Source: an uncultured cyanobacterium (GTDB lineage: Bacteria; Cyanobacteriota; Cyanobacteriia; Phormidesmidales; Phormidesmidaceae). From it: DNA of 64,000 nt. Of this stretch, positions 1-62,510 are shown piece by piece. Location of the stretch: the NCBI GenBank assembly GCA_963793265.1, contig CAWBZI010000004.1, forward strand, positions 224,001-288,000, in the 5' to 3' direction. Position 1 is the stretch's first letter. Every line of letters begins with the position of its first letter. The position numbers and the translations under genes were made by a program. A model generated the notes under the pieces. That model searched no databases. It was not told the origin of the DNA and worked only from the letters and a program-made list of their open reading frames with translations.

Positions 1-656
1 ATGCTTCTATGCTGGTGCTGCTCAAGGCCGATACGCTGGTACGTCATGAGCTAGAGCAGGTTGCAGAGCCTGAGGGCGATGATTTTTTTGATGATGATCT
101 AGACTACAGCGCTGATGAGCTGCCCCGGAACTTGGAGCAGCATATTCATAGAAGGGCGGTTGCCCCGCCTCCGGCTAAGCGGCAGGTGACTTTGAGTGAG
201 CTGATTGATCAGTTGGAGGCGATCGCTGCTGCCATGAGTGAGCCTTCAAGAGTGCGATCGCGTGCTGCTAAGCCTCACACTAAAAAAGAAGCCGTTCGTG
301 CGATTTCCGAGCTAGCCCACCAAGAGAACCTGAACGAAATTGCAGATGCGCTCAACGCCTTTCTAGATAATCACTGGGATGATGTGTTTGAAGATGCCGT
401 TAACTGGATGGATTTTGAGCTGTTACTTACTCACTGGGCGAGCTTTAGGCCGGATGTATTGGGCGGGCCGATTAAGGGCGAGCTGACTGAAGCCGACTAT
501 AAGCACGAAAAGGTCGGCGTTTTTTGGGGTCTGTTGTTTCTCACCTCTCAATCTAAAGTAGAACTGCTGCAAGAGAACTTCTATCAGGATCTCAAAGTGC
601 GGCAGCTCAATGAGATTACGCTAGCAGAAGTGCCTGCTTACGCCCTACCAGATTGA
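1..656 (+). CDS. scpA: Segregation and condensation protein A (5'-partial)
   Basis: Frame is open from the window edge. ASMLVLLKADTL motif, RxVTLxELIxQL segment and C-terminal VGVFWGLLFL..KVELxQExFYxDL winged helix typical of cyanobacterial ScpA. Confidence 0.85.
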   Translation, partial: ASMLVLLKADTLVRHELEQVAEPEGDDFFDDDLDYSADELPRNLEQHIHRRAVAPPPAKRQVTLSELIDQLEAIAAAMSEPSRVRSRAAKPHTKKEAVRAISELAHQENLNEIADALNAFLDNHWDDVFEDAVNWMDFELLLTHWASFRPDVLGGPIKGELTEADYKHEKVGVFWGLLFLTSQSKVELLQENFYQDLKVRQLNEITLAEVPAYALPD

Positions 657-673
657 AGCGGAAATCATATTAT

Positions 674-1504
674 TTAGTCATCTTGAAACAGCGCACAGAA
701 CTGTAGTTCTGTGCGCTCGTCGGCTGGAAACAAGCATTCCAAGCGTAGCTCTTGGAGCGTAATGTCTTGTGGGGTGCCAAAGGTTGTAAGGGTTGTAAAC
801 AGACTGAGCTGTTGTTCGGGCTGCTTTGTTTTAGCAAAGTTGACGGTGAGTAGCGGGAGCTGCCAGCTATCGGCTGTAGGCGCTTGCCATAAATCGTGAA
901 CGTTTGGATAAGACAGTAGCGTGTTAAAGAGCGTTTGGGACTGTTCGTCTTGGCCTTCGGCTAAAGTTTCTCGATGCACACGATGGATGAGGTTAGAGGC
1001 TACGGTTTCCCAGTTTTCGACGTGAGGCTTTATGCCTTCAGGATGAAGCATCAGCTTGATCAAATTAGTCCCGATGTCGTCGGGTATGGCCTGTTCGTCT
1101 AGCAGCCAGCCCATTAGCCTTTGCGCCCCCTGATTACTTTGAATTTGGTTCCAATAGCGATCCATAACGATAGCAGGATAGGGTTCTTGCTGACGTAGCG
1201 TGAAGTCTAGAGCGCGGCGAATAGGGGCGACCTCTGGAGCACTTAGATCAAACTCTGAATAAATAGGGGTAAATCCAGCGGCGGTGAGCATTTTGTTTTG
1301 CTGGCGTAGAGGAATGTCTAGTACGGCTGCGAGTTTGAGTACCATATTGTGACTGGGGCGCGATCGCCCAGATTCAATAAAGCTGATGTGCCGCTGAGAA
1401 ACGCCGCTTGCCATGGAAAGATCGAGCTGGCTGAAATTTCTTTGCGATCGCCACTGCTTGAGTAACTGGCCGAAAGCTCTATCTTTTCGGGTTTCCAAGG
1501 CCAT
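674..1504 (-). CDS. XRE-family HTH regulator with MmyB-like ligand-binding domain
   Basis: N-terminal FGQLLKQWRSQRNFSQLDLS..GVSQRHISFIESGRSRPS; C-terminal EPYPAIVMDRYWN...FGTPQDITLQELRLECLFPAD. Likely ATG start at 1504. Confidence 0.85.
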   Translation of the reverse strand: MALETRKDRAFGQLLKQWRSQRNFSQLDLSMASGVSQRHISFIESGRSRPSHNMVLKLAAVLDIPLRQQNKMLTAAGFTPIYSEFDLSAPEVAPIRRALDFTLRQQEPYPAIVMDRYWNQIQSNQGAQRLMGWLLDEQAIPDDIGTNLIKLMLHPEGIKPHVENWETVASNLIHRVHRETLAEGQDEQSQTLFNTLLSYPNVHDLWQAPTADSWQLPLLTVNFAKTKQPEQQLSLFTTLTTFGTPQDITLQELRLECLFPADERTELQFCALFQDD

Positions 1505-1651
1505 TTTCAAGAATTCCTCAAGATAAGGTTTGCTCGCTATTACTCTACAGGTAATTGAAATGATTATCTGCTAAGTGCACAATCGAGATGTTGAAGACAA
1601 AAGCAGCGCAGATTGTTTTTGTCAGATATTTTCATCAGCAGGAGATCCGAT

Positions 1652-3157: not shown

Positions 3158-3257
3158 ATCTTTACCTTTACAGTTAGCCCTCAGCATAAAAAGATGCTGT
3201 TGCTGCTCCTTCTACCGTAGGAGCTAACTGCGAGGATATGCACTCGTCCGCTGGGTT

Positions 3258-5057: not shown

Positions 5058-5327
5058 AGTGCAAAATAGTAGTAGTGCAAAGCGGCAATAGTTGGCAAGC
5101 AAAAATACGAAAACAGAGCTTAGAAGCGTAGCCTAAAGGCGTAACAATTATCCTTGTTTATTCAACCCAAATATCTTTGAACCTGGCGGGTTTAAGCTCA
5201 ACTTTTTTTGAACTTTCCTAAAGGCTAATGAATCACCATTTTTTCTAATCCTAACGGTTTCTTTATTGGAATATATAAAGGCCGATAAAATTTGTATCTA
5301 TAGGGTGTTTGTGAGGATGAACTTAAG

Positions 5328-6002
5328 TTGAAGGAAACGGCGCTTCAAGACGATAAATACCGGGCCAATGATCATTATGAGATGACTTTGCGATCGCTCA
5401 TGCAGTCGGCAGATATTACGAGCTACCGAGCGCTTGCGACAGCGGCGGGGGTTTCTCGCTGGCAGGTGCAGCAGCTACGGCTTGGTAAGGTAAAGCAGAT
5501 GCGGGTGGGTGCACTAGCTCAACTCGCTGAGGCGCTAAAGGTTCCTTTAAGCAAGCTGCTGAGTGAGTTTGGCTTGGATACTGTAGCACCAGAAAAGTTA
5601 TCGGATGGTGAGGTGGTAGCTCTGCGGCAGGAGTATCAGCGATTGCAGGGGCAGATGGCGCAGCAGCAGCAGCAGGCGCGATCACAGTTTCAAACTGAGG
5701 CGCTGCAAACGATTGAAACCTGGCTGAGGCTGTGGCCGACGATTGCCAAACGGGCTGAGGATAAGGGCTCGGAGCTGCCTGCGGCGAAGGTTTTAGCGTT
5801 TGTGCGACCTGTAGAGGAGATGGTAGCCGATTGGGGGGTGGTAGCGATCGCACCTGTGGATGCGCAGATTCCTTACGATCCCCAACTACATCAGCTCAAA
5901 AAGGGCACTGCTGAGCCAGGCGAAGTTGTCCGGGTGACCCACTGCGGCAGATTGCACCATGGAAAGCTGCTACAGCGCGCCGAAGTTCAGCCGATTGATT
6001 AA
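5328..6002 (+). CDS. XRE-type HTH / coiled-coil / GrpE-like C-terminal domain protein
   Basis: HTH LRSLMQSADITSYRALATAAGVSRWQVQQLR, a Q-rich coil, then PYDPQLHQ..GEVVRVTHCGRLHHGKLLQRAEV resembling the GrpE beta domain. Confidence 0.65.
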   Translation: MKETALQDDKYRANDHYEMTLRSLMQSADITSYRALATAAGVSRWQVQQLRLGKVKQMRVGALAQLAEALKVPLSKLLSEFGLDTVAPEKLSDGEVVALRQEYQRLQGQMAQQQQQARSQFQTEALQTIETWLRLWPTIAKRAEDKGSELPAAKVLAFVRPVEEMVADWGVVAIAPVDAQIPYDPQLHQLKKGTAEPGEVVRVTHCGRLHHGKLLQRAEVQPID

Positions 6003-38425: not shown

Positions 38426-38995
38426 CTAATGAACAGGCCCTTGAGCAGCGCAAACCGTAGACCAGCTTTCGTGGTTAAGTCGGGCATCCAGCAGGCCGCT
38501 GACTTCGCCGCGCTGGCCGATGATTCGTTCGCGGTCGAGTGAACCCGGCTGGGTGTAGGTCGTGAGCTGATCGAGGGTGGTGGCGGCGCATACCCAGTCC
38601 TGACGCTCGGTGGCGGTGGCAAGGCGGGCGTATAGCTGGTCGATGGCGCTCTGCCGGGCAAAGACGCGATCGTATTGAATGTAGTAGGCCATGTTGTCGG
38701 CGGCAGCGGCGGCGTAGGGATGGCCGGGCCGGATCATTAGGGCTCTTTTGAAGTTGATAAGGGCGGTGTTGAAGTCGCCCTGGCGGGAGGCGGCGTAGCC
38801 TACGTTCATGGCTTGCTGGAAGCTCATGCCTGCGGTGGTGAGGGCGGGTGAGGATTGGGGCGTTTGTGAGGATTGGGGCGTTTGGGCGATCGCACTTGAT
38901 GCCAAGTTAGCCGCAATCAATAACCCAGTAAGTCCCGCTGCTGCTAATTGGCCCAGAATGAAACCTTGGCGGCGTGTGGGTTTAATGGCGGACAT
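38426..38995 (-). CDS. Exported TPR-like protein
   Basis: RR-containing leader and signal peptide; MNVGYAASRQGDFNTALINFKRAL..RPGHPYA TPR. Confidence 0.75.
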   Translation of the reverse strand: MSAIKPTRRQGFILGQLAAAGLTGLLIAANLASSAIAQTPQSSQTPQSSPALTTAGMSFQQAMNVGYAASRQGDFNTALINFKRALMIRPGHPYAAAAADNMAYYIQYDRVFARQSAIDQLYARLATATERQDWVCAATTLDQLTTYTQPGSLDRERIIGQRGEVSGLLDARLNHESWSTVCAAQGPVH

Positions 38996-46753: not shown

Positions 46754-48508
46754 ATGGTTGCCGCCGCTGTTCAGACGAAGGAAAATTTTGAAGGGCCTGC
46801 TCAAAAGCGCCTGTCGATGCAGGTTGAGGGCATTGCTGAAGAGACGACGACGCTGCGATCACAAGACTGGGATCGCGACCGATTCGACATTGAATTTGGA
46901 CTTCAAAACGGCACAACCTACAACTCGTTCATTATCCAGGGCGAAAAAACCGCGCTTGTAGACACCTCCCACGCCAAGTTCCGCGAGCTATATATAGATG
47001 CGCTCAAAGGTGAAATCGATCCGGCCACTATTGATTACATTGTGGTGAGCCACACCGAGCCTGACCACAGTGGTTTGATTAAAGACGTGCTGGCGCTGGC
47101 TCCGAATGCGGTGGTTGTGGGTGCTAAAGTTGCGATCGCCTTCCTAGAAGATCTGATCCACGCCCCTTTTGAGCGCCAAATCGTCAAAAGCGGCGACACG
47201 CTAGAGCTTGGCAACGGCCACCTGCTCGAATTTACCAGTGCGCCAAACCTGCACTGGCCCGACACTATCTTCACCTTCGATCATAAAACCGGTATTCTCT
47301 ACACCTGCGATGCCTTTGGTGCTCACTACTGTACTGCCGACACCTTTGATGAAGATCTTGAAGCGCTTTCACCTGACTTTCGCTTTTATTACGAGTGCCT
47401 GATGGCTCCGAACGCTCGCTCTGTGGTGTCGGCCATGAAGCGGATGGATAAGCTAGACGGCACGATTGACACGATTGCGACCGGGCACGGGCCTTTGCTC
47501 AGACGAAACGTAGAAGAGCTGACGGGGCGCTATCGGGAGTGGAGCGCGCAGAAGAATAATGCTGAGACGCTGGTGTCGGTGTTTTATGTGTCTGACTATG
47601 GGTTTAGCGATCGCATTTCGCAGGCGATCGCCCGAGGCATCAATAAAACTGGCGTTGGTGTAGAAATGGTGGACTTGCGCTCTGCCGATGCTCAAGACGT
47701 GAATGAAATTGTCAGCCGCTCGACGGGCGTTGTGATCGGAATGCCGCCGTCTACGGGTAAAGGATCTGAAGAAACGCGAGCAGCACTCGGAACGGTGTTA
47801 GCAGGCGTGAGCGAGAAGAAAACGTTCGGCTTGTTTGAGTCTTATGGCGGTGATGACGAGCCGATTGATACGCTGCAAACTAAGCTGCAAGATCTGGAGC
47901 TAAAGGTCGCCTTTGATCCGATTCGTGTAAAAGATACGCCGGATGAAGCGCTATATCAGCTCTGCGAAGAGACGGGTACTGACCTGGGTCAAGACCTGGC
48001 CAAGAAGAAAAAAATTAAGAAGATTAAAGCGTTAGACGCTGATTTGCAAAAGGCTCTGGGCCGCATTAGCAGCGGACTTTATATCATCACTGCGACAAAG
48101 GGCGACGTGCAGTCAGCGATGCTGGCCTCCTGGATTACGCAGGCGAGCTTTGAGCCTTTGGGCTTTACGGTAGCTGTGGCTAAAGACAGAGCGATTGAGT
48201 CGTTTATGCAGACGGGCGACACGTTTGTGCTGAATATTTTGGAAGAGGGCAATCATCTGCCGCTGATGAAGCATTTCCTCAAGCGCTTTCCGCCGGGTGC
48301 CGATCGGTTTGCCGGGGTGCGGACGCGCCCGGCTGAAAATAAATCACCGATTCTGGCCGATTCGCTGGCGTATTTGGAATGTGAGGTGGCAAGCCGGATG
48401 GAGCTGAGCGATCATTGGCTTGTGTACTGCACGGTGGATGAAGGCAAGGTGGCTAAAGAAGAGGCGCAGACGGCTGTACACCATCGGAAGGTTGGTAACT
48501 ACTACTAA
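46754..48508 (+). CDS. flv3: Class C flavodiiron protein Flv3
   Basis: DWDRDRFDIEFGLQNGTTYNS, canonical HTEPDH / HWPD / CDAFG ligands, flavodoxin and flavin reductase domains. Confidence 0.88.
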   Translation: MVAAAVQTKENFEGPAQKRLSMQVEGIAEETTTLRSQDWDRDRFDIEFGLQNGTTYNSFIIQGEKTALVDTSHAKFRELYIDALKGEIDPATIDYIVVSHTEPDHSGLIKDVLALAPNAVVVGAKVAIAFLEDLIHAPFERQIVKSGDTLELGNGHLLEFTSAPNLHWPDTIFTFDHKTGILYTCDAFGAHYCTADTFDEDLEALSPDFRFYYECLMAPNARSVVSAMKRMDKLDGTIDTIATGHGPLLRRNVEELTGRYREWSAQKNNAETLVSVFYVSDYGFSDRISQAIARGINKTGVGVEMVDLRSADAQDVNEIVSRSTGVVIGMPPSTGKGSEETRAALGTVLAGVSEKKTFGLFESYGGDDEPIDTLQTKLQDLELKVAFDPIRVKDTPDEALYQLCEETGTDLGQDLAKKKKIKKIKALDADLQKALGRISSGLYIITATKGDVQSAMLASWITQASFEPLGFTVAVAKDRAIESFMQTGDTFVLNILEEGNHLPLMKHFLKRFPPGADRFAGVRTRPAENKSPILADSLAYLECEVASRMELSDHWLVYCTVDEGKVAKEEAQTAVHHRKVGNYY

Positions 48509-50358: not shown

Positions 50359-50979
50359 ATGTCATCTGTTTACATCCCTACTAAGCTCCTCAGCTTTGAA
50401 GAATATCTGACCTATGACGACGGGTCGGACTACCGCTATGAGCTGTTAGATACGGGAGAGCTAGTCGAATTGCCCTACGAAAATCAAATCAACGTCATTT
50501 TGGCAATGTCGCTAGCTAGGTACTTTGAGCAGTTTGTGCACTGGCGCTTAATCATGCTCAACACCACGGCTATACAAGTAGCCCCTACAACGATTACGCT
50601 TGCAGACGGTCGGCGGCGTCGTGTCCGTCAGCAGAGTCGCATTCCAGATCTGATGATTTTGACCCAGACTGGAGAGCGTCAGATATTTGGTAAGCCTAGT
50701 GGGGTGGCTTTGCATCATGACAATCCAACGCTCATTGTAGAAGTTGTTAGCGAATCTAATGCGAGTGAGGATTATGTTGACAAGCGTATTCAATACGAGG
50801 CCAGAGGCGTGAGTGAGTATTGGATTGTTGATCGTCATCAGCAGAAAGTGACGGTGTTGACGCTTGAGGATGATCGCTACCAAGAAGCGGTTTACCAAGG
50901 CAATGCGGTAATTCAATCGAAGGTATTTCCTGGTTCTACAATTACCGTGGAGAGCGTTATTACCGTTGATGAAATGTAA
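50359..50979 (+). CDS. Uma2-family PD-(D/E)XK endonuclease-like protein
   Basis: SFEEYL..RYEL..GEL, RIPDL, LIVEVVS, DYVDKRIQYEARGVSEYWIVD. Confidence 0.9.
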   Translation: MSSVYIPTKLLSFEEYLTYDDGSDYRYELLDTGELVELPYENQINVILAMSLARYFEQFVHWRLIMLNTTAIQVAPTTITLADGRRRRVRQQSRIPDLMILTQTGERQIFGKPSGVALHHDNPTLIVEVVSESNASEDYVDKRIQYEARGVSEYWIVDRHQQKVTVLTLEDDRYQEAVYQGNAVIQSKVFPGSTITVESVITVDEM

Positions 50980-51087: not shown

Positions 51088-52548
51088 ATGCCAGCAGTCC
51101 AGCACGGATTTGAGTTACTAACAACGACATTTGAGCCGAAGGAAGCCCAGCAGTTTCTAAGCGACTGTCAGCAGCAGGCAGTTCATGAAAATCAATCTAA
51201 AATTGCTAGCTTTTCGGTGTCTATCTCACCGGTTTCGCCCTGGGCTGTGCTGTCTGCTTTGGGCCTGGTTCGCCAGCGCCATTTTTATTACGATCCGCCG
51301 CAGCGTCCGGCAATGGTAGGACTAGGCGTGGTGATTGGTTCTAACACCTCTGGATCTATGAGGTTTGAGCAGGCGCAAGGGTTTATCAATAGTTGGGCGT
51401 CGCGGTTTATCTATGCCGATAGCAAGGCTAATAGTAAGACAGCGGCAGGGCATTTCTTTTGTAGCGCAACCTTCTTTGACCAGCAGCACGATCAGCCTGA
51501 AGCTGCCGCAATCGCTGTGATAGAGCCCAATCATTTTGAGCCTGCCTATGTGTTTGTGCCCAAGGTTCAGGTCACCACTAAAGCAACATCTTCGGTGGTG
51601 ACGTTTAATCGATTGATGACAGCGACGACCGACGTTGAGGCAGAAATAGCCGACATTTATCGCCAGCTAAAAGCACTCATGGCGACGAGAGACTTGGGAG
51701 AGGCGCGGCTTGCTTCTGGCAAAGTGGTGACTAAGGATGTGGCGAACTTTGCGCAGGCGGTGACGGCGGTGTTGCAGCAGATGAAGTCTGGGCGGCTGAG
51801 CCACTTGCTGCATAAGGTGGTGCTCGCTGATGTGATGGATGTGGTGGCTCCGCAGGCAGTGGACGTGGTGCGATCGCTCCAAACGCTCCGACACAATCAC
51901 CCTGACTGCACGGTATTTTCAGTTGGCAACGGGCAGGGCCAGTCCTTCATCGGTGCTAGCCCAGAGCGGCTATTGAGCATTACCGATTCGCAGCTCACAA
52001 CCGACGCGCTCGCTGGCTCGTTTGCTCGGGGCAAAACGCTTGATGCCGATGCTGAACTAGCCGAAACGATGCTGAACAGTGAAAAAGAACGATATGAGCA
52101 TCAAGTCGTCGTAGAATTTATCACGCGGCAGTTGCGATCGCTCGGCCTCTCTCCTCATCATGCCAGCGCCCCACAGCTCCTCCAACTCCTCCACATTCAA
52201 CATCTCCACACCCCCATCACCGCCACCCTCAGCTCCGCCGATATTTCGCCACTAGCCATTCTCGCCAAGCTCCACCCCACCCCAGCGGTTGCCGGTTTAC
52301 CTCGTGCCGAAGCCTGTCAGCTCATCCGCCAGCACGAGACTTTTGATCGTGGCCTTTACGCTGCGCCCCTCGGCTGGATCGATACGCAGGGTAACAGTGA
52401 GTTTATTGTGGGGATTCGGTCGGCGTTGATCAATGGGTGCAAGGCTCGGCTGTATGCGGGAGCGGGGATTGTAGCGGGCTCTGAACCGGCAAAGGAACTG
52501 GCAGAAATCAAGCTAAAATTGCAAACGCTGCTAAACGCGCTGGTGTAG
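51088..52548 (+). CDS. menF: Isochorismate synthase
   Basis: [51 protein letters not shown]. Directly upstream of menD. Confidence 0.92.
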
Positions 52549-52555: not shown

Positions 52556-54284
52556 ATGCCTCTCGATTTTCGTAATGTCAACAGCTTGTGGGCTTCTGTT
52601 GCGGCTGAAACACTGGCCCGGCTAGGGCTGCAAACGGTGATAGTGTGTCCAGGATCGCGCTCTACGCCGCTGACGTTTGCCTTTGCCAATCATCCCGATA
52701 TTGAAGCGCTGCCGGTTTTAGATGAGCGCTCAGCGGCTTTTTTCGCGCTGGGTTGTGCAAAACGTCAGCATCTCCCGGTGGCTTTGCTTTGCACGTCAGG
52801 AACAGCAGGCGCGAACTTTTACCCGGCGATCATAGAAGCCTATGAAAGCAACATTCCTTTGCTGGTGTTCACGGCTGATAGACCGCCTGAACTGAGAGAT
52901 TGCGCCTCGGGACAAACCATCGACCAGCAAAAGCTATACGGCGGTTTTGTGAAGTCTTACAGCGAGCTAGCGGTACCTGAGAGTAGGCCGGAGATGCTGG
53001 CTTATTTGCGGCAAACTTTGGTGAGTGCCTGGGGAAAGGCGATCACAGCACCGCCTGGCCCAATTCACTTTAACTGCCCGTTTCGCGATCCGTTGCCACC
53101 GCTAGCTGATGGTGAAACTGAGCAGCTAGCAACAGATTTTGACTACAGATCTCTTTTTTGCGGCAGTAAAGCCGCCTACGCCCGCAATCGAACAAACGCC
53201 GTATCTCTCTCTTTCAGAGTGGCAGCATTGCTCAGAAGGTATCATTATTGCTGGTGCCGCAGCGCCAGAGAACCCAGAGGCGTACTGTAAGGCGGTAAGC
53301 GATTTGGCTGAAACGCTGAGCTGGCCTGTTTTAGCAGAGGGTCTTTCGCCTTTGCGCAACTATCGCAGCCTGAACGACTCTCTCGTTTCTACCTACGATA
53401 TTATCTTGAGAGATCCAGAGCGAGCAGACTATCTGGTGCCTAAGCAGGTGATTCAGCTTGGGCCGCTGCCGATTAGTAAGGTGTTGCGTGGGTGGTTGGC
53501 GCGATCGCAGCCGCAGCGATGGATAATTGGCTCCCAGCGAAATCTAGATCCGCTGCATGGCCCAACTCACTTTTTAACAACAGATATCGAAACGATTGCA
53601 TGGCTTGCAACAAACAAACCCCTCTCTGAGTCTTTGAGCCCTTATCATCAAAGGTGGCTCGCTTACGAGAGTACGGTTCGCAGGGCGCTGGATATTCGAC
53701 TTAAAAACGAGACTGCTTTGGTGGAGAGCAAGGTGGTGTGGCTACTTTCTCAGCATTTGCCTGATCGTACGCCTTTGTTTGTGGCAAATAGTATGCCGGT
53801 ACGGGACGTGGAGTATTTTTGGGGTGGGGGCGATCGCTACATTCAACCCGCTTTTAGCCGAGGCGCTAACGGCATCGACGGCACCCTTTCAACGGCGATG
53901 GGGTTAGCTCATCACAACGCACCAACAGTCTTGCTCACGGGCGATTTAGCTTTTTTACATGATACGAATGGACTGTTGAACATCCCTCAGCTTTCGGGCT
54001 CTCTCACGATTGTACTTATCAACAATGACGGCGGCGGTATTTTTGAAATGCTGCCTGTCTCTGAGTTTGAGCCTGAGTTTGAGAAGTATTTTCTGACGCC
54101 TCAGCAGGTGAATTTTAAGACGATGTGTGAGACTTATGGGGTGAAATATCAGCGGATTGAGGAGGTGCGCGAGTTGGTGGAGAATATTGAGCGGTTGCCG
54201 GAGAAAGGAGTGAGCTTGTTGGAGGTGGTGTGCGATCGCCAGCAAAGCGTTCAGCAAAGAAAAGCGCTATTGAATGCCTTGTAA
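52556..54284 (+). CDS. menD: SEPHCHC synthase MenD, split by a +1 frameshift near 53144
   Basis: First half has [30 protein letters not shown]; second half has [31 protein letters not shown]. Removing one base near 53144 gives DFDTDLFFA in a single frame. Confidence 0.9.
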
Positions 54285-54286
54285 TC

Positions 54287-55126
54287 ATGCCCCATCTCAC
54301 GCTTGAAAACCATGTACTGCACTATGTAACGGTGGGTGATTCAAGTAATCCATCGTTGTTGATGCTGCATGGTTTTTTAGGGAGCTGTGAGGATTTTAGA
54401 GCGATCGCATCTACCCTAAGCCAGCATTTTTACTGCATCATTCCCGATCTTCCTGGACATGGTAAAACCGTCACAACCCCAAACTGCTACACATTTCCCA
54501 CAACCGCTCAGGCACTAATAGATATACTTAACCATCTGAATATTCCTCGAACTCACCTGCTGGGCTATTCTATGGGCGGGCGTTTGGCGCTCTACTTAGT
54601 CTGTTGTTTTCCTGAGCGGTTTAATCGAGTCGTTTTAGAGTCGGCTTCGCCTGGGCTGAAGACGGCTGATGAGAGGCGGTTGAGGGCGGGGAGGGATGAG
54701 GTGATCGCACAAAAAATAGAAACCACTCCCCTTCCTACTTTTCTGGCTCAGTGGTACAGCAATCCCCTTTTCGCTAGCCTAAAGAACCACCCAAAAGCCT
54801 ATGCCGAAATGCTCCAGCGTCGTCAAAACAACAATGCTACAGAGCTAGCGAATGCTTTACGCGGCCTTAGCACAGGACGACAGCCTTCGCTTTGGCAAAC
54901 TTTGAAATCTATTGACATACCGTTGCTTCTGCTTGCAGGCACCTTCGATGACAAATTCGTTGCTATCAATCGTGATATATTTTCACGGATGGATCAGAAA
55001 ACACCGCCAATACTTGAAGTAATCAAAGAATGCGGCCACAATATTCATTTAGAGGACTCTGCCACATGTATCTATAGTGTCGCCCATTTCTTAAGTGCCT
55101 ATAGCGCTCCGTTACTGATAAGGTAG
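54287..55126 (+). CDS. menH: SHCHC synthase
   Basis: LHGFLGS, DLPGHG, GYSMGGRLAL, ESASPGL, CGHNIH. Follows menD. Confidence 0.9.
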   Translation: MPHLTLENHVLHYVTVGDSSNPSLLMLHGFLGSCEDFRAIASTLSQHFYCIIPDLPGHGKTVTTPNCYTFPTTAQALIDILNHLNIPRTHLLGYSMGGRLALYLVCCFPERFNRVVLESASPGLKTADERRLRAGRDEVIAQKIETTPLPTFLAQWYSNPLFASLKNHPKAYAEMLQRRQNNNATELANALRGLSTGRQPSLWQTLKSIDIPLLLLAGTFDDKFVAINRDIFSRMDQKTPPILEVIKECGHNIHLEDSATCIYSVAHFLSAYSAPLLIR

Positions 55127-56529: not shown

Positions 56530-57378
56530 GTGAGTACTTTGCGAATCGTAATTACAGGGGCAACTGGCAAAGTGGGCTCCCAGATTCCTCAATTTATTGA
56601 TACGCAACAGCATCAGGTCGTACTGGCACTCAGAGGTGTAGCCAAGCTAAAGCAGTTTGATGAGAAGGTAGAGGCCGTTCCTTTTGACTTTGAAAAGCCT
56701 GAGACGTTTGCGGCTGCACTTAAAGGGGCTGACAGTCTTTTTTTGATGCGTCCGCCGACGGCTGCAAAGAATGTGAACTTGATTGTGGATGAGGCGATCG
56801 CATCAAACATCAAACACATCGTCTACCTCTCTGTACTTGGCGCTGATAAAAACAAGCTCCTGCCGCACAGAGCCACAGAAGACTACATAAAAAAAGCTGG
56901 CATCTCTTACACCTTTCTAAGAGCCAGCTTCTTTATGCAAAATTTGAGCACCGTCCACCGAGCAGACATTCAAAAACGAAATACTCTTTTTCTACCTGCT
57001 GGTACCGGCAAAACCAGCTTCATCGACACTCGCGATATCGGCGCAGTTGCGGCAAAGACACTCACTGAATCTGGTCATGAGGGTAAAGCCTATCGACTCA
57101 CAGGCTCCGAAGCTTTGGACTATTACGAAGTCGCAAACATCTTTAGCGAAGTGCTTGAACGTCCGATTACCTACACCAATCCTTCTGTCTTCAAGTTTGT
57201 AGCCACCATGCTCAAGCGAGAGACGCCCCTGCCATTCGCCTTAGTCATGGGCGGTATCTATACAACCGTACGATTCGGTTTAGCAGACCCACTTTATTCA
57301 GATACCGCCAATTTGCTGAATCGTGAGCCTATTTCCTTTTGCACGTTTGTAAAAGACTATCGAGACTGCTGGGAATAG
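56530..57378 (+). CDS. NmrA-like / atypical SDR NAD(P)H-binding protein
   Basis: ITGATGKVG, YLSV.GA, LRASFFMQN, FIDTRDIG. Confidence 0.88.
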   Translation: MSTLRIVITGATGKVGSQIPQFIDTQQHQVVLALRGVAKLKQFDEKVEAVPFDFEKPETFAAALKGADSLFLMRPPTAAKNVNLIVDEAIASNIKHIVYLSVLGADKNKLLPHRATEDYIKKAGISYTFLRASFFMQNLSTVHRADIQKRNTLFLPAGTGKTSFIDTRDIGAVAAKTLTESGHEGKAYRLTGSEALDYYEVANIFSEVLERPITYTNPSVFKFVATMLKRETPLPFALVMGGIYTTVRFGLADPLYSDTANLLNREPISFCTFVKDYRDCWE

Positions 57379-57382
57379 GCTA

Positions 57383-58003: not shown

Positions 58004-58021
58004 AGTGTCTTGGTGGTGGGA

Positions 58022-59704
58022 TTAAGTTGCAGCCGGGATGGGAACGCCGTGCTCGTATAGCTCGTCGGGATCTTCTTCAGCAATGTAGCCCAAGCCGTAG
58101 TCGTAGGGGCCGGTTTTCAAAACAGGCAGCTCTTCAAAGTTCTCAATGTGAGGCGGCGAAAGCGTTTGCCATTCCATTGTGAGCGCTCGCCATGGGTTAG
58201 CGGGGGCTTTAGGGCCATATTTCCAAGACCAGGCGGCGTTGATGAGGAAGGGAATGGTCGAAACCGCCATGATATAAGAGCCGATGGTCGCAAGCACGTT
58301 GAGATCGGTGAACTGCGGATCGTAGAGGGCGATGCGGCGGTTCATGCCCATCAGGCCGAGTTCGTGCATGGGCATGAAGGTGAGGTTCATGCCGACGAAG
58401 GTGAGGGTGAAGTGAATCTTGCCCCAAAATTCGTTCATCATGTGGCCGGTCATTTTGGGGAACCAGTGGTAAACAGCCATGAATACGCCGAATACGGAGG
58501 CTCCAAAGAGAACGTAGTGGAAGTGGGCGACAACAAAGTAGGTGTCGTGGACGTGAATGTCGAAGGGGACGGCGGCGAGCATGACGCCGCTGATGCCGCC
58601 GATGAGGAAGAGGGAGATAAAGCCGAGGGCAAATAGCATGGCGCTGGTGAAAGCGATTTTGCCGCGCCAAAGGGTCGCAACCCAGCCGAATACTTTAATG
58701 CCGGTAGGGACGGCGATGACCATGGTGGTGATCATGAAGAACATGCGCAGCCAGGGTGGAGTGCCGCTGGTGAACATGTGGTGAGCCCATACGATTAGGC
58801 CCAAGAAGCTGATGACGATGGAGGAGTAGGCGATCGCACGATATCCAAAGATAGGCTTACGCGCATGAACCGAAATCACCTCACTAATCGCGCCAAACAG
58901 CGGCAGCACGAAAATGTAGACCGCCGGGTGGGAGTAAAACCAGAACATATGCTGGTAAACCACCGGATTACCGCCACCTGTCGGGTTGAAGAAGGCGGTA
59001 CCGGCTAACAGGTCAAAGGCTAATAGGATCAGCGCACCTGCTAACACTGGCGTACTGATTAAAATCAGCAGGGAAGTGGCGATCATTGCCCAGCAGAACA
59101 AAGGCATATCTGTTAAGGACATGCTCGGTACGCGCATTTTTAGAATGGTGACCAAAAAGTTCAGTCCGCCTAAAATGGAGGCGGTTCCACCTACCAGAAT
59201 GCTCATAATCCAAATGCCTTCGCCCACTGCGCCTGTCGTGAGGCTCAGCGGTGGGTAGGAAGTCCAGCCTGCTTGAGGCGGCTCGAAGAAGAAGCTGCTG
59301 ATGAGCAGAAGGCCGGAAGGGGGGATCATCCAGAAGGCGATCGCATTCAGCCTTGGAAAGGCCATATCGCGCGCGCCAATCATCAGCGGGATCAGGTAGT
59401 TCGCCAGGCCCGCGCCCGCAGGCACAATCCACAAAAACAGCATGACCGTGCCGTGCAGCGTCAGCATACCGTTGTAAACATCAGGCGTCACAATATCAGG
59501 AGCCGGGGTCGCCAGCTCCGTCCGCATAACGGTCGCCAGCGAGCCGCCGACCAAATAGAAGAAAAATGCGGTCACAAGGTACTGAATACCAATGACCTTA
59601 TGATCGGTGCAAAAAGTGAAGTAGTCAGTCCATTTGCGCTCGTTGCCCAAGAGCATCGGCACGTCTGACCGGGATGATTGAGGTGCTTCTGTAGTAGCTG
59701 TCAT
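58022..59704 (-). CDS. ctaD: Cytochrome c oxidase subunit I
   Basis: TDHKVIG, HGTVM, GWTSYPPL, WFYSHPAVY, WAHHMF, HDTYFVVAHFHYV. Confidence 0.98.
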   Translation of the reverse strand: MTATTEAPQSSRSDVPMLLGNERKWTDYFTFCTDHKVIGIQYLVTAFFFYLVGGSLATVMRTELATPAPDIVTPDVYNGMLTLHGTVMLFLWIVPAGAGLANYLIPLMIGARDMAFPRLNAIAFWMIPPSGLLLISSFFFEPPQAGWTSYPPLSLTTGAVGEGIWIMSILVGGTASILGGLNFLVTILKMRVPSMSLTDMPLFCWAMIATSLLILISTPVLAGALILLAFDLLAGTAFFNPTGGGNPVVYQHMFWFYSHPAVYIFVLPLFGAISEVISVHARKPIFGYRAIAYSSIVISFLGLIVWAHHMFTSGTPPWLRMFFMITTMVIAVPTGIKVFGWVATLWRGKIAFTSAMLFALGFISLFLIGGISGVMLAAVPFDIHVHDTYFVVAHFHYVLFGASVFGVFMAVYHWFPKMTGHMMNEFWGKIHFTLTFVGMNLTFMPMHELGLMGMNRRIALYDPQFTDLNVLATIGSYIMAVSTIPFLINAAWSWKYGPKAPANPWRALTMEWQTLSPPHIENFEELPVLKTGPYDYGLGYIAEEDPDELYEHGVPIPAAT

Positions 59705-59806
59705 AGGGTGTTGCTAAAAAAGGACAAGGTTTTAGAATTTTGTCCGTACAAGAAAGGAAGATGTCCGTACTAAGAAAGGAAAATTCATTAACTAACTTGG
59801 GATCGT

Positions 59807-60814
59807 CTAGTTAGCGTCTGTGTGCTGATGTCCGTCATGATGATGACCTTCGTGCAGTGCCACTAAAGTCTCTGGTGACATAGCGAGCTGCATCGGCTCA
59901 ACAAACGTATTCAAGTACTCTGCCTCTGTTCTATCAGCCGGAGCCTTGGGCAAATTCGCAATCGTATTGTCGCCATTCGCCATCGCCGTAACGCGACTAT
60001 CAACCCACTCAGCGTATTCATCAGCCGACTGCACAATAATCTGCGTTCTCATACCGCCGTGATAGGGGCCACATAGCTCTGCGCATACCACCGGATACGT
60101 GCCTTCTTTAATGGCATTGAACACAAGCTTGGTGTCTTGCCCAGGGATCATGTCTTGCTTAATGCGAAACTCAGGGAGCCAGAAGGCATGAAGGACATCT
60201 TCTGCGTTCAAGTTCAGCTCCACAGGCGTATCTACCGGCACGTGCAGCTCGCCATCGACAATGCCGTTGGGATAGTTGAAGATAAACGCATACTGTAAGC
60301 CCTTCACCTCAACAGAAAGCAGCGCATCACCATCTTCGCCAGGCATCATGCCCATACCGGCAGCAGCATCTGCCATAAGCGGCATACTGCCATCGCCAGG
60401 TGCATAGGCGACCTGCACAGCGGCTTTGTCGGTAGGAGCCATGCTGTGATTCATCAAATCCAGGCCGCCCATGCGAGTGTAAATGTCGAAGCTATAGATA
60501 GAGATGCCAAGCACGACAACGGCTGGGATCGCTGTCCAAACAATCTCTAAAGGAATGTTGCCTTCTAGGTGTTCGCCATCGCCCATGTCGCCCTTTTCGC
60601 GGCGAAAGCGAAAGGCCGCGACCAAAAGCGCACCTTCTACCAGCAAAAACAAGCCAAAGCCAATGGTCATCATCGTATTGAACAGCCCGTCTACCAGTTC
60701 AGCCTCGGCAGACGCTGCGACGGGTAGCAAACCATGATTTTGGCCATACCAGAGGCTAGCCAAGGTAACGGCAATACCTACTAAAAGGGTCAGAATAGAA
60801 CTGGGAATCTTCAC
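59807..60814 (-). CDS. ctaC: Cytochrome c oxidase subunit II (CuA)
   Basis: LEIVWTAIP, DVLHAFW and CAELCGPYHGGM CuA motif. GTG start. Confidence 0.96.
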   Translation of the reverse strand: MKIPSSILTLLVGIAVTLASLWYGQNHGLLPVAASAEAELVDGLFNTMMTIGFGLFLLVEGALLVAAFRFRREKGDMGDGEHLEGNIPLEIVWTAIPAVVVLGISIYSFDIYTRMGGLDLMNHSMAPTDKAAVQVAYAPGDGSMPLMADAAAGMGMMPGEDGDALLSVEVKGLQYAFIFNYPNGIVDGELHVPVDTPVELNLNAEDVLHAFWLPEFRIKQDMIPGQDTKLVFNAIKEGTYPVVCAELCGPYHGGMRTQIIVQSADEYAEWVDSRVTAMANGDNTIANLPKAPADRTEAEYLNTFVEPMQLAMSPETLVALHEGHHHDGHQHTDAN

Positions 60815-61523
60815 AGTGTTTCGCTTCAGATCTCAATAGATCTGTTGTTTGGGTTTTGTGCTTATGTCTTGAAAACGGCCCTTGTGAAACACTTTTTCTT
60901 CGGTTTCTTGAGGGCTTTTTGCTGGCAGATGATAGCGCGACCGCTGAGGTGGGCTCATCGCCTATACAAGGTAGCGTTCTTTTGATAGATATGAATCGTT
61001 TTTTAAGGGATGTGTTGGGCTTTAACCTTTTCTTCAGAATCTCTTATATGGCACGTATAAAAAGAGTCCGTAAAACAGGAGATCAGACAATATTAAAACT
61101 GCCCTCTTTTGATACAAAACGCTACAAAAAAACTTGATTATAGCCTTCTCCTATCGCTACCTCAGCTTTGCCTTCATCGACTGTATCTAACACTACTAAC
61201 AGCTCGGCCTCAATCCAGCAGAAAATCTTTATAATCTAATAAGTACAAGGCTTTTGAGCGCGCCGTTCTTTCAAAAACCGCCTGAAACCGCCTCGGTATT
61301 CTGTCTGGAATGATGATTAATTGTTAAGCAACGTAAAATCAAAGGCGGCTAATCGGAAGAAAATGTCTACAACGGAAGAATATTCCTTTGATTGCGTTAT
61401 ATTCTCATCGGCAGAAGATTCTAGATAGTCATTTAGACAAGCCTCTAACTTGCGGCTTTAAATCTACGGCTTCGAGTCTCTAGTAAGAAAACTTTGTTCT
61501 CTCTTTTTGCTCTTTCTGTTTTT

Positions 61524-62510
61524 ATGGCAAACCCCAGCTTTTCAAGCACTCCTTTCTCTCCTAAGTCTGCTGACGAATCTTTGGGTGGTTCGCCCGCTTT
61601 TTCGCCCCAGACTTTGATTAGACGATGGGTGTGGAAAATGGCGATCGCAACCCTCCTACTCATGGCCGTCGGCAGCGCCACCCGCGTAATGAACGCCGGA
61701 CTGGCCTGCCCCGACTGGCCCTTATGCTACGGCCAGCTAGTCCCCACCGCTCAAATGAACCTGCAAGTGTTCTTAGAGTGGTTTCACCGCTTAGACGCCT
61801 CTTTAATTGGGCTAATGGCGATTGGGCTGGTGGGCTTAAGCGCCTGGTATCGCAAGGATTTACCCACCTGGCTCCCTTGGGCCTCTCTGGTTGCACTGTT
61901 CTTAATTGTTGTGCAGGGCATTTTAGGCGGCCTTACCGTAATTGAGTTGCTGCGGTTTGACATTGTTACCGCTCATTTAGGCACCGCCCTATTGTTCTTT
62001 TGTACGCTGCTGACGATTGGCATGGCGCTACTGCCCTATCAGCCAACTGGGAATGCGGGCAAGCTGCCCTGGCTAGGCATGGCAGCAGCGGTGCTGGTGT
62101 ACTGTCAGAGCATTATCGGCGGACTGGTCGGCTCTCGCTGGGCCGCGCATCAGTGCTTTGGTGTAGCTGACTTGTGTAACGTAATGAACTCTCACATTGC
62201 TGGCGTAGTGCCACCGACGCTAGCCGTTGTCGCTCTTGTTATTAGCGTATGGCGTCGGCCTGCTTTGAACAGCGGCCTGCGAAATCTGGCCAATGCAGCG
62301 GGCCTGCTCGTTGTCTTGCAAATTGCTTTAGGCGTAGCGACTTTCAAGCTACGGCTTCAGGTAGAGCCCTTGACCGTATGCCATCAGGCTATTGGTGCGG
62401 CGCTGCTAGGCACCTTAGTTTGCTTTACAGTGCTATCCCTTCGCGACTTCTTGGCTCAAAGAGACGTACGAAAAAACATCCTGCTGACGACGGCCTCGTC
62501 TATCTCCTAG
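61524..62510 (+). CDS. ctaA: Heme A synthase (COX15/CtaA)
   Basis: GSATRVMNAGLACPDWPLC, EWFHR, QGILGGLTV, VTAHL. Confidence 0.94.
   Translation: MANPSFSSTPFSPKSADESLGGSPAFSPQTLIRRWVWKMAIATLLLMAVGSATRVMNAGLACPDWPLCYGQLVPTAQMNLQVFLEWFHRLDASLIGLMAIGLVGLSAWYRKDLPTWLPWASLVALFLIVVQGILGGLTVIELLRFDIVTAHLGTALLFFCTLLTIGMALLPYQPTGNAGKLPWLGMAAAVLVYCQSIIGGLVGSRWAAHQCFGVADLCNVMNSHIAGVVPPTLAVVALVISVWRRPALNSGLRNLANAAGLLVVLQIALGVATFKLRLQVEPLTVCHQAIGAALLGTLVCFTVLSLRDFLAQRDVRKNILLTTASSIS

What the first reader, a model, noticed from the sequence alone, without database searches (positions are those of the whole stretch)
219..61648. Base-composition skew flips polarity at HIP1 sites regardless of gene orientation
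Seen: on the + strand, DNA just 5' of GCGATCGC is G/T-rich and DNA just 3' is C/A-rich. Hand counts in 60-nt flanks (5' then 3'): site 38886, minus-strand gene, G32/C6 then G12/C18; site 47132, plus gene, G23/C9 then G12/C20; site 51870, G26/C10 then G14/C19; site 56794, G18/C10 then G7/C18; site 58830, ctaD on minus, G21/C10 then G10/C18. One-sided counts: G6/C30 after 52134 and G27/C4 before 54232. The same look occurs near 5844, 11921, 53830, 56326 and 61641. It happens mid-gene on both strands, so transcription or codon bias does not explain it. Established: HIP1 function is unresolved, its core is a methylation target, and many cyanobacterial chromosomes lack a clean two-replichore GC skew. 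Inference: a nick or break at HIP1 followed by 5'->3' resection would leave the complementary strand single-stranded; C->T and A->G deamination there gives C/A enrichment 3' of the site on each strand. HIP1 would then be a recurrent entry point for repair or recombination. Caveat: I chose sites by eye, so selection bias is possible, and I cannot confirm this is unpublished.
Basis: partly seen in the sequence, partly recalled or inferred. Interest (0 to 1): 0.8.

Follow-up and report, generated by a model that had tools for sequence, protein, structure and literature searches.

The report
Strand bias flips at HIP1 palindromes
In this cyanobacterium the silent positions of genes are G-rich just before and C-rich just after nearly every copy of the abundant palindrome GCGATCGC, a real and apparently undescribed scar that points to a one-directional DNA repair-type process anchored at this long-unexplained word.

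Summary
Confirmed. All 12 hand counts are exact. 74 of 83 window sites and 83% of genome sites lean G-to-C, against 47-48% of random positions. The flip is strongest at fourfold sites: GC skew about +-0.6 beside the site, reaching ~800 nt at isolated flanks. It is the same for both gene strands, all eight codon families and all codon-bias classes. It is absent at 118 control palindromes and at E. coli GATC. Orthologous positions that lack HIP1 in a relative lack it (0.008 vs 0.214), and conserved sites carry more. New here: the footprint varies by lineage, ratio 0.97-5.15 over 132 genomes, and is null in a genome twice as HIP1-dense. Best reading (0.4): HIP1-anchored polar strand excision with mismatch-type-dependent correction. 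No responsible gene was found. The scan had found this flip before on other DNA. I found no paper describing it.

The parts
219..61648 (.). Span holding all 83 HIP1 octamers (GCGATCGC) of the window. Each is the switch point of a local G-rich (5') to C-rich (3') ramp, and the intervals between sites form a sawtooth.
   Evidence: 83 sites; 74 of 83 with D>0, z 11.8; fourfold GC skew 11-100 nt is 5' +0.577 and 3' +0.058 on a window background of +0.316; 37 sites in + genes, 37 in - genes, 9 intergenic by my own gene calls. (sawtooth genome-wide).
38826..38953 (.). HIP1 at 38886-38893 with its 60-nt flanks, inside a minus-strand gene
   Evidence: 5' G32/C6, 3' G12/C18; gene strand -1 by own gene calls.
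47072..47199 (.). HIP1 at 47132-47139 with 60-nt flanks, inside a plus-strand gene
   Evidence: 5' G23/C9, 3' G12/C20; gene strand +1.
51810..51937 (.). HIP1 at 51870-51877 with 60-nt flanks
   Evidence: 5' G26/C10, 3' G14/C19.
52074..52201 (.). HIP1 at 52134-52141 with 60-nt flanks (very C-rich 3' flank)
   Evidence: 5' G15/C10, 3' G6/C30.
54172..54299 (.). HIP1 at 54232-54239 with 60-nt flanks (very G-rich 5' flank)
   Evidence: 5' G27/C4, 3' G11/C16.
56734..56861 (.). HIP1 at 56794-56801 with 60-nt flanks
   Evidence: 5' G18/C10, 3' G7/C18.
58770..58897 (.). HIP1 at 58830-58837 with 60-nt flanks, inside a minus-strand gene
   Evidence: 5' G21/C10, 3' G10/C18; gene strand -1.
5784..5911 (.). 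HIP1 at 5844-5851 with 60-nt flanks
   Evidence: 5' G26/C7, 3' G12/C19.

Best explanation
HIP1 is the fixed entry point of a strand-specific excision-and-resynthesis process. On each side of the site, the strand whose 5' end lies at HIP1 is the one removed and rewritten. The strand that runs 5'->3' into HIP1 serves as template and 'wins' whenever the two strands disagree. Mismatch recognition is uneven: G.T and G.G are recognised best and C.C hardly at all. So the winning strand gains G and loses C while A and T stay about neutral. The chance that a tract starting at HIP1 reaches a given base falls with distance, which gives a gradient of several hundred nucleotides. Neighbouring sites add up, which produces a sawtooth. 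The disagreements could be replication errors (a polar, HIP1-directed form of mismatch repair, close to Elhai's hypothesis) or heteroduplex between chromosome copies. SHOWN: the footprint, its polarity, its dependence on the full local octamer, its base pattern, its reach and its variability between lineages. INFERRED: the nick, the direction of excision and the role of MutS/MutL.
For: (1) DNA-level and general. Fourfold-site GC skew is +0.64/-0.59 at 1-5 nt and +0.21/-0.24 at 81-100 nt, equal for + and - genes. The shift in ln(G/C) is uniform over all 8 fourfold codon families (+0.74 to +1.12 upstream, -0.70 to -1.04 downstream) and over codon-bias terciles. It is present, though weaker, at 583 intergenic sites.
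(2) It behaves as one force on G and C. Twofold sites, where only transitions are silent, shift by the same log-odds as fourfold sites (upstream d ln(C/T) about -0.6, d ln(G/A) about +0.4). S relative to A on the strand entering HIP1 is G +0.42/+0.60, C -0.50/-0.51, T +0.05/+0.18. GC4 is constant. Direct C<->G differences between near-identical strains are only 4 of 146, 4 of 165, 2 of 117 and 2 of 70.
(3) The largest asymmetry, G versus C, matches the largest known contrast in correction. [quoted passage not shown] C-C is 'not subject to MMR' (PMC5416779, passages).
(4) Reach and additivity fit tracts from an entry site. Isolated flanks (n=1,051 and 1,052) keep antisymmetric skew of 0.26 at 101-150 nt, 0.17 at 201-300, 0.12 at 401-600 and 0.056 at 601-800. 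Elhai's model assumed ~1000 nt. A second HIP1 behind a site strengthens the far flank, and intervals cross zero at their midpoint.
(5) Local causality. At 655 ortholog site pairs the genome with HIP1 scores 0.214 +- 0.009 and the genome lacking it (>=2 mismatches) 0.008 +- 0.010, against 0.006 for random positions. Conserved sites are stronger than lineage-specific ones (0.406 vs 0.250 in G000; 0.264 vs 0.174 in G015).
(6) It is independent of the dominant replication direction.
(7) MutS1 and MutL are present in G000. RecJ is in 80 of 80 genomes. ExoI, the main 3'->5' exonuclease of the E. coli pathway, is in 0 of 5.
(8) E. coli GATC, a bidirectional entry site, leaves no footprint (0.014 +- 0.007, n=1,317). 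So polarity is the special feature here.
(9) Principle: break or nick processing can decide which strand wins mismatch resolution (PMC9001825, abstract).
Against: No nick or nickase is shown. G000 has no Pfam MutH or Vsr. MutL, RecJ, ExoVII and the MutY domain are just as present in genomes without the footprint, so nothing explains the lineage variability. Half-sites xCGATCGC show no footprint even on their intact side. This fits a reader of the whole 8-bp palindrome but not Elhai's one-strand G-meC signal. Intergenic flanks carry a 3-4 times weaker signal than fourfold sites (skew 0.12 vs 0.45 at 11-20 nt), which a purely neutral DNA-level process does not predict unless intergenic sites are younger or constrained. 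The A/T order differs between relatives. Part of the recognition hierarchy I assumed from memory is contradicted: T:C is reported as corrected at near 100% in one E. coli assay. The model predicts equal shifts for G/A and T/C, but they are 0.4 and 0.6. Equilibrium composition alone cannot separate this from other polar processes.
Confidence: 0.4

Rival explanations
1. A nick or break at HIP1 is followed by 5'->3' resection. The exposed 3'-ended strand (the one running into HIP1) suffers single-strand damage (C->T, A->G, more generally C>N and A>N), and this writes the skew by mutation.
For: It has the same geometry and sign as observed. C is the most depleted base. C/T falls more than G/A rises, and T is slightly above A in G000, so a minor deamination component is possible. 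Precedent: flanks of human meiotic break hotspots carry strand-asymmetric C>N and A>N mutations that swap strands at the centre, ascribed to resected ssDNA and translesion synthesis (PMC7615360, passages). Methylated HIP1 raises recombination and transformation in Synechococcus PCC 7002 'reminiscent of Chi' (bioRxiv 10.1101/2024.09.10.611283, abstract).
Against: A and T are flat, GC4 is constant and the purine pool rises from 0.49 to 0.60, which transitions cannot give. In G015 A>T on the G-rich strand. Direct C<->G changes are 2-3% of strain differences. G000 and four other strong genomes have no Y-family polymerase, and presence is 23 of 40 strong vs 15 of 40 weak. Excess fourfold identity around 405 conserved sites is 0.13-0.19 at all distances, so there is no visible local mutagenesis, although a model check suggests only ~10% would be expected.
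Confidence: 0.2
2. HIP1 acts as a recombination or DNA-uptake signal (Chi- or DUS-like). Single strands with a fixed polarity relative to HIP1 enter heteroduplex with another chromosome copy or with transforming DNA. Biased resolution of that heteroduplex (a strand-polar biased gene conversion) drives G up and C down.
For: The pattern looks like a fixation bias: the same log-odds at twofold and fourfold sites, added on top of any background. HIP1 abundance co-evolves with type IV pilus and competence genes, RadC and a GIY-YIG nuclease (PMC13756078, sections 11 and 13 read). Transformation is enhanced by methylated HIP1. It overlaps with the best explanation in its mismatch step.
Against: With the textbook rules (the invading or incoming strand is the one corrected; 3' end enters first) I derive the opposite sign; this is my inference. 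Genomes with abundant HIP1 can lack the footprint altogether (G023, G050, eight g38 genomes, three g57 genomes), so HIP1's general role is not sufficient. No oriented guide word exists in the flanks.
Confidence: 0.2
3. Reverse causality. G-to-C switch points arise for another reason, and HIP1 is born or retained preferentially at them.
For: Positions one mismatch away from HIP1 in the other genome already or still carry most of the footprint (0.223 +- 0.023 vs 0.264). GTGATCGC sites have a full footprint (+0.285/-0.223, n=554).
Against: Orthologous positions with >=2 mismatches have none (0.008). No other process is known to make ~7,000 sharp switches. Ramps are centred exactly on the octamer and reset at every copy. 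Conserved sites are stronger. GTGATCGC is the expected m5C-deamination product, that is, a recently lost site.
Confidence: 0.07
4. Selection on a function of the flanks: an extended hairpin or cruciform, an oriented protein-guiding word, or an mRNA- or codon-level effect (G-ending codons upstream, C-ending downstream in every transcript).
For: A transcript-oriented effect would be symmetric for both gene strands. Fourfold sites are 3-4 times stronger than intergenic DNA.
Against: Flanks are not complementary (observed = expected at 3-60 nt, deficit at +-1-2). A per-base model explains 87/83/74% of 5-, 6- and 7-mer strand asymmetry with no dominant word. The shift is uniform over codon families and independent of codon adaptation. 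It is present in intergenic DNA. Selection on ~50 silent sites at each of ~7,000 loci is implausible (inference).
Confidence: 0.05
5. Artefact: eye-picked sites, an extended motif, or a repeated element.
For: The immediate flank has a G preference (-2: G 0.41).
Against: All-site averages, controls, a unimodal shift of the whole distribution, fourfold sites out to hundreds of nucleotides, and replication in G015.
Confidence: 0.01

Closest known systems
Methyl-directed mismatch repair of E. coli (Dam, MutS, MutL, MutH at GATC)
   Same: A short methylated palindrome serves as the strand-entry site. Excision tracts reach on the order of 1 kb. MutS and MutL are present in G000.
   Different: G000 has no MutH-family protein. 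The site is 8 bp, and half-sites are inert. The HIP1 footprint is polar, whereas E. coli GATC leaves none (0.014 +- 0.007 vs 0.30-0.41). That is expected if E. coli excises in both directions.
Elhai's hypothetical G-meC-directed mismatch repair that creates HIP1 (Life 2015, PMC4390886; passages read)
   Same: It postulates a nick at HIP1 opposite the methylated strand, MutS/MutL-dependent degradation and a ~1000-nt range. That range matches the ~800-nt reach seen here.
   Different: The paper predicts neither polarity nor flank skew (0 occurrences of 'skew' or 'asymmetr'). Its signal is a one-strand G-meC, but xCGATCGC half-sites have no footprint on the intact side. It does not foresee HIP1-rich genomes without any footprint.
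Strand-asymmetric mutation around human meiotic double-strand-break hotspots (Hinch et al. 2023, PMC7615360; passages read)
   Same: Mutation types swap strands at the initiating site. The flanks span hundreds of nucleotides to 2 kb. The asymmetry is ascribed to strand-specific processing after 5'->3' resection.
   Different: That case is eukaryotic and PRDM9/SPO11-driven, is demonstrably mutagenic and depends on translesion polymerases. Here no rate increase is seen, no Y-family polymerase is present in G000, and the outcome is an equilibrium composition with A and T neutral.
Replication-associated GC skew (sign change at origin and terminus)
   Same: G excess on one strand with an abrupt sign change at a defined point. 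The HIP1 flip has the polarity of a terminus (G-rich then C-rich on the + strand).
   Different: The scale is ~0.1-0.8 kb, repeated ~6,900 times. It is independent of and additive to the large-scale skew. It has almost no TA component.
Chi sites and DNA uptake sequences (proposed roles of HIP1: bioRxiv 10.1101/2024.09.10.611283 abstract; PMC13756078)
   Same: Hyper-abundant short words that interact with recombination or uptake machinery; methylated HIP1 boosts transformation.
   Different: Chi and DUS are oriented, non-palindromic words. To my knowledge (recalled) they are not known to imprint a polar skew on their flanks. HIP1 abundance and the footprint are uncoupled.

Membership tests
MutHLS-type methyl-directed mismatch repair | MutS (mismatch-binding domain I) and MutL present | tested here: met
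   PF01624 hit 144 bits in a 926-aa frame at G000:C5. PF08676 hit at G000:C4:331509-331874. Both are equally present in genomes without the footprint (MutL 5 of 5).
MutHLS-type methyl-directed mismatch repair | MutH/Sau3AI-family nicking endonuclease | tested here: not met
   PF02976: 0 matches in G000 (98.97% complete), and the control rings in E. coli. The review PMC5101192 states mutH is absent from all cyanobacteria studied (passages).
MutHLS-type methyl-directed mismatch repair | Entry site acts from both sides of a mismatch (no polarity) | tested here: not met
   The HIP1 footprint is strictly polar. E. coli GATC shows none.
MutHLS-type methyl-directed mismatch repair | Nicking of the unmethylated strand at a hemimethylated site | not testable with these tools
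   Only assembled contigs of public runs were available, with no raw reads and no methylation or nick data.
Elhai's G-meC-directed repair at HIP1 (hypothetical) | Range of about 1000 nt from the site | tested here: met
   At isolated flanks the antisymmetric skew stays above zero out to the 801-1000 nt bin (0.056 at 601-800, 0.030 at 801-1000).
Elhai's G-meC-directed repair at HIP1 (hypothetical) | A single G-meC on one strand suffices as the signal | tested here: not met
   ACGATCGC, CCGATCGC and TCGATCGC (n=171, 222, 120; >=150 nt from HIP1): skew on the intact side is -0.085, -0.140 and -0.023, against -0.327 at HIP1.
Very-short-patch repair (Vsr with a C5 methyltransferase) | Vsr endonuclease present | tested here: not met
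   PF03852: 0 matches in G000, although about seven C5-methyltransferase loci exist.
Break-resection ssDNA-damage footprint (human hotspot type) | Strand asymmetry that swaps sides at the initiating site | tested here: met
Break-resection ssDNA-damage footprint (human hotspot type) | Damage signature C>T/C>N and A>G on the exposed strand (T gain, GC loss) | tested here: not met
   T 0.237->0.234-0.248, A 0.185->0.167-0.193, GC4 0.57-0.60. A>T in G015.
Break-resection ssDNA-damage footprint (human hotspot type) | Local rise in substitution rate; translesion polymerase available | tested here: inconclusive
   Excess fourfold identity is 0.13-0.19 near the site vs ~0.17 far from it, but sites are near saturation (identity 0.384) and only a ~10% change is expected. 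PF00817 is absent from G000.
Replication-associated GC skew | Depends on fork direction and comes with a TA skew | tested here: not met
   The footprint is equal in G-rich, neutral and C-rich 50-kb blocks (0.756/0.704, 0.783/0.768, 0.796/0.839). The TA term is about 10 times smaller than the GC term.
Chi-like or KOPS-like oriented guide words | A specific oriented oligomer enriched toward the site | tested here: not met
   A per-base model gives R2 of 0.87, 0.83 and 0.74 for 5-, 6- and 7-mers. The largest departures are 1.1- to 2.7-fold.

The most novel reading that the evidence does not exclude
HIP1 is the recognition site of a so far unidentified enzyme that reads the whole 8-bp palindrome and nicks or loads there. 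The enzyme launches strictly unidirectional (5'->3') strand replacement. On this reading it is the missing strand-discrimination signal of mismatch correction in many cyanobacteria, present at graded activity across lineages and silent in some. The hyper-abundance of HIP1, its quasi-regular spacing and the lack of clean replichore skew in these genomes would all be by-products of this system.
Probability: 0.25. Interest if true: 0.9.

Novelty: new variant of a known kind. Interest (0 to 1): 0.8.

Why it matters
HIP1 has been known for about 30 years without an agreed function. The polar footprint is a quantitative readout, written into every genome, of a process that acts at HIP1. It shows that the process is strand-specific, changes strand exactly at the octamer and reaches several hundred nucleotides. 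It also needs the full palindrome and differs in strength between lineages. That makes the question testable in three ways: by comparative genomics (which genes track the footprint), by mutation-accumulation in repair mutants, and by nick or gap mapping. It also matters for method. In strong-footprint genomes, silent-site composition, codon usage and even amino-acid usage near ~7,000 sites are shaped by distance to HIP1. That distorts codon-bias, GC-skew and selection analyses.

Tried and rejected
**Structure and word rivals**
- Extended hairpin or cruciform: flank complementarity equals expectation.
- Oriented guide word: none found.
- Codon, tRNA or expression effect: the shift is uniform over families and terciles.
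- Replication-direction dependence: none.

**Polarising substitutions and reads**
- Relatives: the nearest held genomes are 64-85% identical and fourfold identity is 0.384, so polarising substitutions was not feasible.
- Public runs: only contigs were held, and only 40 of 323 variant positions were listed, so there was no test around HIP1 and no read-end test.

**Gene hunt for what separates strong from null genomes**
- 2 strong vs 3 null genomes: MutL 5 of 5; ExoI 0 of 5; ExoVII over cut-off in 4 of 5; Uma2 matches 49 and 39 vs 2, 17 and 43.
- 40 strongest vs 40 weakest: RecJ 80 of 80; Y-family polymerase 23 vs 15 of 40; MutY C-domain 79 of 80.
- Nothing discriminates.

**Other predictors of footprint strength (132 genomes)**
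- Octamer strictness (HCGATCGC/HIP1): rho -0.26, genus-level -0.24 (p 0.04).
- HIP1 density: rho -0.26, not significant at genus level.
- Genome size: rho +0.34, genus-level +0.27.
- All are weak, and strict-octamer genomes without a footprint exist (g57).

**Not pursued**
- The C5-methyltransferase neighbourhoods were located but not followed up.

**Caveats**
- Gene calls come from my own codon-usage caller (4,567 genes, 85% coding).
- The cross-genome phenotype is a pattern-count proxy at -13, -16 and -19. 69 of 201 genomes were dropped for low counts (<150).
- Related genomes are not independent.

Full report
**Observation**

The window (G000 contig 4, 224001-288000) holds 83 copies of GCGATCGC against 1.8 expected.

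Taking every site instead of chosen ones, 74 of 83 have more G-minus-C in the 60 nt before the site than in the 60 nt after it. Two are ties and 7 go the other way. Mean D is 9.69, z = 11.8 against random window positions. So the feared selection bias inflated the size, not the fact.

Genome-wide (5.68 Mb, 6,888 sites), the all-site GC skew is +0.36 next to the site, +0.106 at 40-60 nt and +0.039 at 100-150 nt, with a mirror image on the 3' side. 83.3% of sites lean this way against 48.0% of random positions, and the whole distribution is shifted rather than a subset.

Among 118 other palindromic octamers with at least 40 copies, the antisymmetric fourfold-site score is -0.013 +- 0.042 (maximum 0.172). 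HIP1 scores 0.304.

**Anatomy**

I called genes with a codon-usage model of my own (4,567 genes, 85% coding).

- **Where the flip lives.** It is concentrated at silent positions. Fourfold-site GC skew is +0.64/-0.59 at 1-5 nt, +0.45/-0.47 at 11-20, +0.26/-0.32 at 41-60 and +0.21/-0.24 at 81-100. It is the same in plus- and minus-strand genes. Codon positions 1 and 2 deviate only within about 30-40 nt.
- **Reach.** Where no other HIP1 lies within 1.5 kb on that side (n=1,051 and 1,052 flanks), the footprint reaches much further: 0.26 at 101-150 nt, 0.17 at 201-300, 0.12 at 401-600 and 0.056 at 601-800.
- **Neighbours.** Effects add. A second site behind a site raises ln(favoured/disfavoured) at 301-400 nt from 0.06 to 0.23-0.24. 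Every inter-site interval is a monotonic ramp from about -0.5 to +0.5 that crosses zero at its midpoint.
- **Background.** The footprint adds, in log-odds, to whatever large-scale skew a region has: 0.756/0.704, 0.783/0.768 and 0.796/0.839 in G-rich, neutral and C-rich 50-kb blocks. So it shows no dependence on the dominant replication direction.
- **No hairpin, no word.** Flanks are not complementary to each other, and there is a deficit at +-1-2. No oriented word carries the bias: a per-base model explains 87, 83 and 74% of the strand asymmetry of 5-, 6- and 7-mers.

**What part of the motif matters**

Among one-off variants at least 150 nt from a true HIP1, only GTGATCGC keeps the footprint (+0.285/-0.223). 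It is also the commonest variant (n=554) and is what deamination of the methylated C of CGATCG would produce, so these are most simply recently decayed sites (inference).

Variants that keep CGATCG but lose the outer G (ACGATCGC, CCGATCGC, TCGATCGC) have no footprint on either side, even next to the intact end. The full 8-bp palindrome is therefore required.

**Base signature**

On the coding strand upstream of HIP1 (1-10 nt), fourfold sites read A .193, C .111, G .461, T .234, against A .185, C .272, G .305, T .237 far away. Downstream is the mirror image (C .450, G .116). GC4 stays at 0.57-0.60.

Twofold-degenerate sites, where only transitions are silent, shift by the same log-odds as fourfold sites: d ln(C/T) about -0.6 and d ln(G/A) about +0.4 upstream. 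So this is not a special G<->C transversion. It behaves like a single force that favours G, disfavours C and leaves A and T about neutral.

Differences between near-identical strains in four public runs agree. 78-83% are transitions and only 4 of 146, 4 of 165, 2 of 117 and 2 of 70 are C<->G.

The shift in ln(G/C) is uniform over all eight fourfold codon families despite baselines from -1.23 to +0.76. It is the same in low, middle and high codon-adaptation terciles. This removes the transcript- or codon-level rival, which the palindromic symmetry by itself does not exclude. The force is strong enough to move amino-acid usage: more Gly and Val codons upstream, more Leu(CTN), Pro and Thr downstream.

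**Causality**

I mapped 630 orthologous genes between G000 and 1.2 Mb of a same-genus relative, G015. Median amino-acid identity is 76%, and fourfold identity is 0.384, close to saturation.

Of 839 G000 HIP1 sites in these genes, 405 are conserved at exactly the aligned position, 51 differ by one base, 343 differ by two or more and 40 are unaligned.

| Site class (antisymmetric fourfold skew, 11-100 nt) | Score |
|---|---|
| One genome has HIP1, the other differs by >=2 bases (655 pairs): genome with the site | 0.214 +- 0.009 |
| Same pairs: genome without the site | 0.008 +- 0.010 |
| Random positions | 0.006 |
| Conserved sites, read in G000 / G015 | 0.406 / 0.264 |
| Lineage-specific sites, read in G000 / G015 | 0.250 / 0.174 |
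| One-mismatch positions, genome lacking the exact octamer | 0.223 |

So the footprint needs a local HIP1 in the same gene at the same codons. It grows with site persistence and outlives a recent loss.

In 200 kb of G023, which has 2.7 HIP1 per kb (about twice G000's density), 578 sites show no flip at any distance. In G025 (80 sites) it is confined to about 40 nt.

I calibrated a pattern-count proxy, GNNGNNG-N12-HIP1 over CNNCNNC-N12-HIP1. It gives 3.9 in G000 and 1.26 in the G023 sample. I applied it to 201 genomes of the class.

- Among the 132 genomes with at least 150 counts, the ratio runs from 0.97 to 5.15 (median 1.47).
- 90 are above 1 at z>3, 26 are within z<2 and none is reversed.
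- G000's genus is near the top (2.55-4.02).
- Null groups include g6 (2 genomes), g38 (8), g57 (3) and much of g5.
- Contrasts occur within families (f10: 1.09-2.55; g53: 1.14-2.28).
- Strength correlates only weakly with octamer strictness, HIP1 density and genome size.

The G-versus-C component is general, but the A/T component is not. In G015 A beats T on the G-rich strand (S_T -0.22 to -0.26), whereas in G000 T is at or just above A.

**Mechanism**

The geometry says that the two strands are treated differently and that the roles swap at HIP1. The sign fits a 5'->3' removal of the strand that leaves HIP1, with the strand running into HIP1 kept.

The T/A sign reverses in G015, and silent divergence around 405 conserved sites is flat. 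Y-family polymerases are absent from G000 and do not track the trait.

*My preferred reading (confidence 0.4)* keeps the geometry but puts the bias in mismatch correction. The strand entering HIP1 wins whenever a recognised mismatch lies in the tract. Because G.T and G.G are the best and C.C the worst substrates (PMC3167615 and PMC5416779, passages), G accumulates and C is lost on the winner, while A.A and T.T roughly cancel. This explains:

- the equal shift at twofold and fourfold sites;
- the additivity of neighbouring sites and the midpoint zero-crossing;
- the ~0.8 kb reach, which is like Elhai's assumed ~1000 nt;
- the independence from transcription and replication direction;
- why E. 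coli GATC, which serves both directions, leaves nothing (0.014 +- 0.007 over 1,317 sites).

*What speaks against it.* No nickase is known; MutH and Vsr are absent. All candidate components are equally present in null genomes. Half-sites are inert, contrary to a one-strand G-meC signal. Intergenic flanks are 3-4 times weaker than fourfold sites. One reported assay finds T:C well corrected.

*Rivals that remain.* ssDNA damage after resection is at 0.2; its closest precedent is human meiotic hotspots (PMC7615360). A recombination- or uptake-linked polar conversion is also at 0.2.

**Literature**

Full-text searches were 'highly iterated palindrome' + skew (4 papers, none relevant), HIP1 + GCGATCGC (18 papers), HIP1 + cyanobacteria + 'strand asymmetry' (0) and cyanobacteria + 'GC skew' + palindrome + synonymous (5 chloroplast papers).

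Term searches inside Elhai 2015, Xu et al. 2018 and the 2026 GBE paper found no description of a flank skew. Subscription-only papers and supplements were not seen.

Earlier notes of this scan report the same flip in this genome and in others. I re-derived it independently and treat those notes as leads only.

Noticed in passing
window 50395-50952 (+) (G000:C4:274395-274952): A Uma2-family (PF05685, PD-(D/E)XK nuclease-like) gene lies in the window. G000 has 49 matches to this family genome-wide. Counts in other genomes (39, 2, 17, 43) do not track the footprint.
   Followed up: partly
genome-wide: ATCGCGAT, a palindrome built from the two HIP1 halves in swapped order, is itself frequent (298 copies). 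It carries about half of the HIP1 footprint (+0.136/-0.207). Some copies lie in overlapping GCGATCGCGATCGC.
   Followed up: no
window as a whole; G000:C4 0-400 kb: The window sits in a region of strong large-scale skew: fourfold-site GC skew +0.316, all-site +0.086 (G 17,687 vs C 14,897). Across the contigs the 100-kb skew profile is irregular, without a clean two-replichore pattern.
   Followed up: partly
positions -2..-1 and +1..+2 of all HIP1 sites: The bases flanking HIP1 are less often complementary to each other than expected (0.222 vs 0.277). So the octamer is not extended into a longer perfect palindrome, although G is preferred at -2 and -1 and C at +1 and +2.
   Followed up: no
L007-L016 (G023:C1:1-200000); for many genomes: In G023 the outer position is loose: HCGATCGC runs at 148-205 per 1,000 HIP1 for each base, against 27-44 in G000. 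In several genomes CGATCGC without the leading G far outnumbers HIP1 (for example G042: 12,783 vs 813). So the iterated unit differs between lineages.
   Followed up: partly
control columns: The reversed, non-complemented word CGCTAGCG (also a palindrome) is unusually frequent in G000's genus (173-307 copies) and in g57 (225-341). Most other genomes have about 20-170.
   Followed up: no
window 53845, 58861-59361 and 59361 (tables 5 and 7): Contigs of related strains break off or skip within 8-31 nt downstream of HIP1 sites. There is a loose end at 53845 after the site at 53830, a 499-nt skip from 58861 to 59361 (each 17-24 nt past the end of a HIP1), and a loose end at 59361. This could be structural variation at HIP1 or cross-mapping of a paralogue.
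   Followed up: no
genome-wide, intergenic HIP1 (n=583): The footprint in intergenic DNA is 3-4 times weaker than at fourfold sites at the same distance (skew 0.12 vs 0.45 at 11-20 nt). This is unexplained. Younger sites or constraint on intergenic DNA are guesses.
   Followed up: partly
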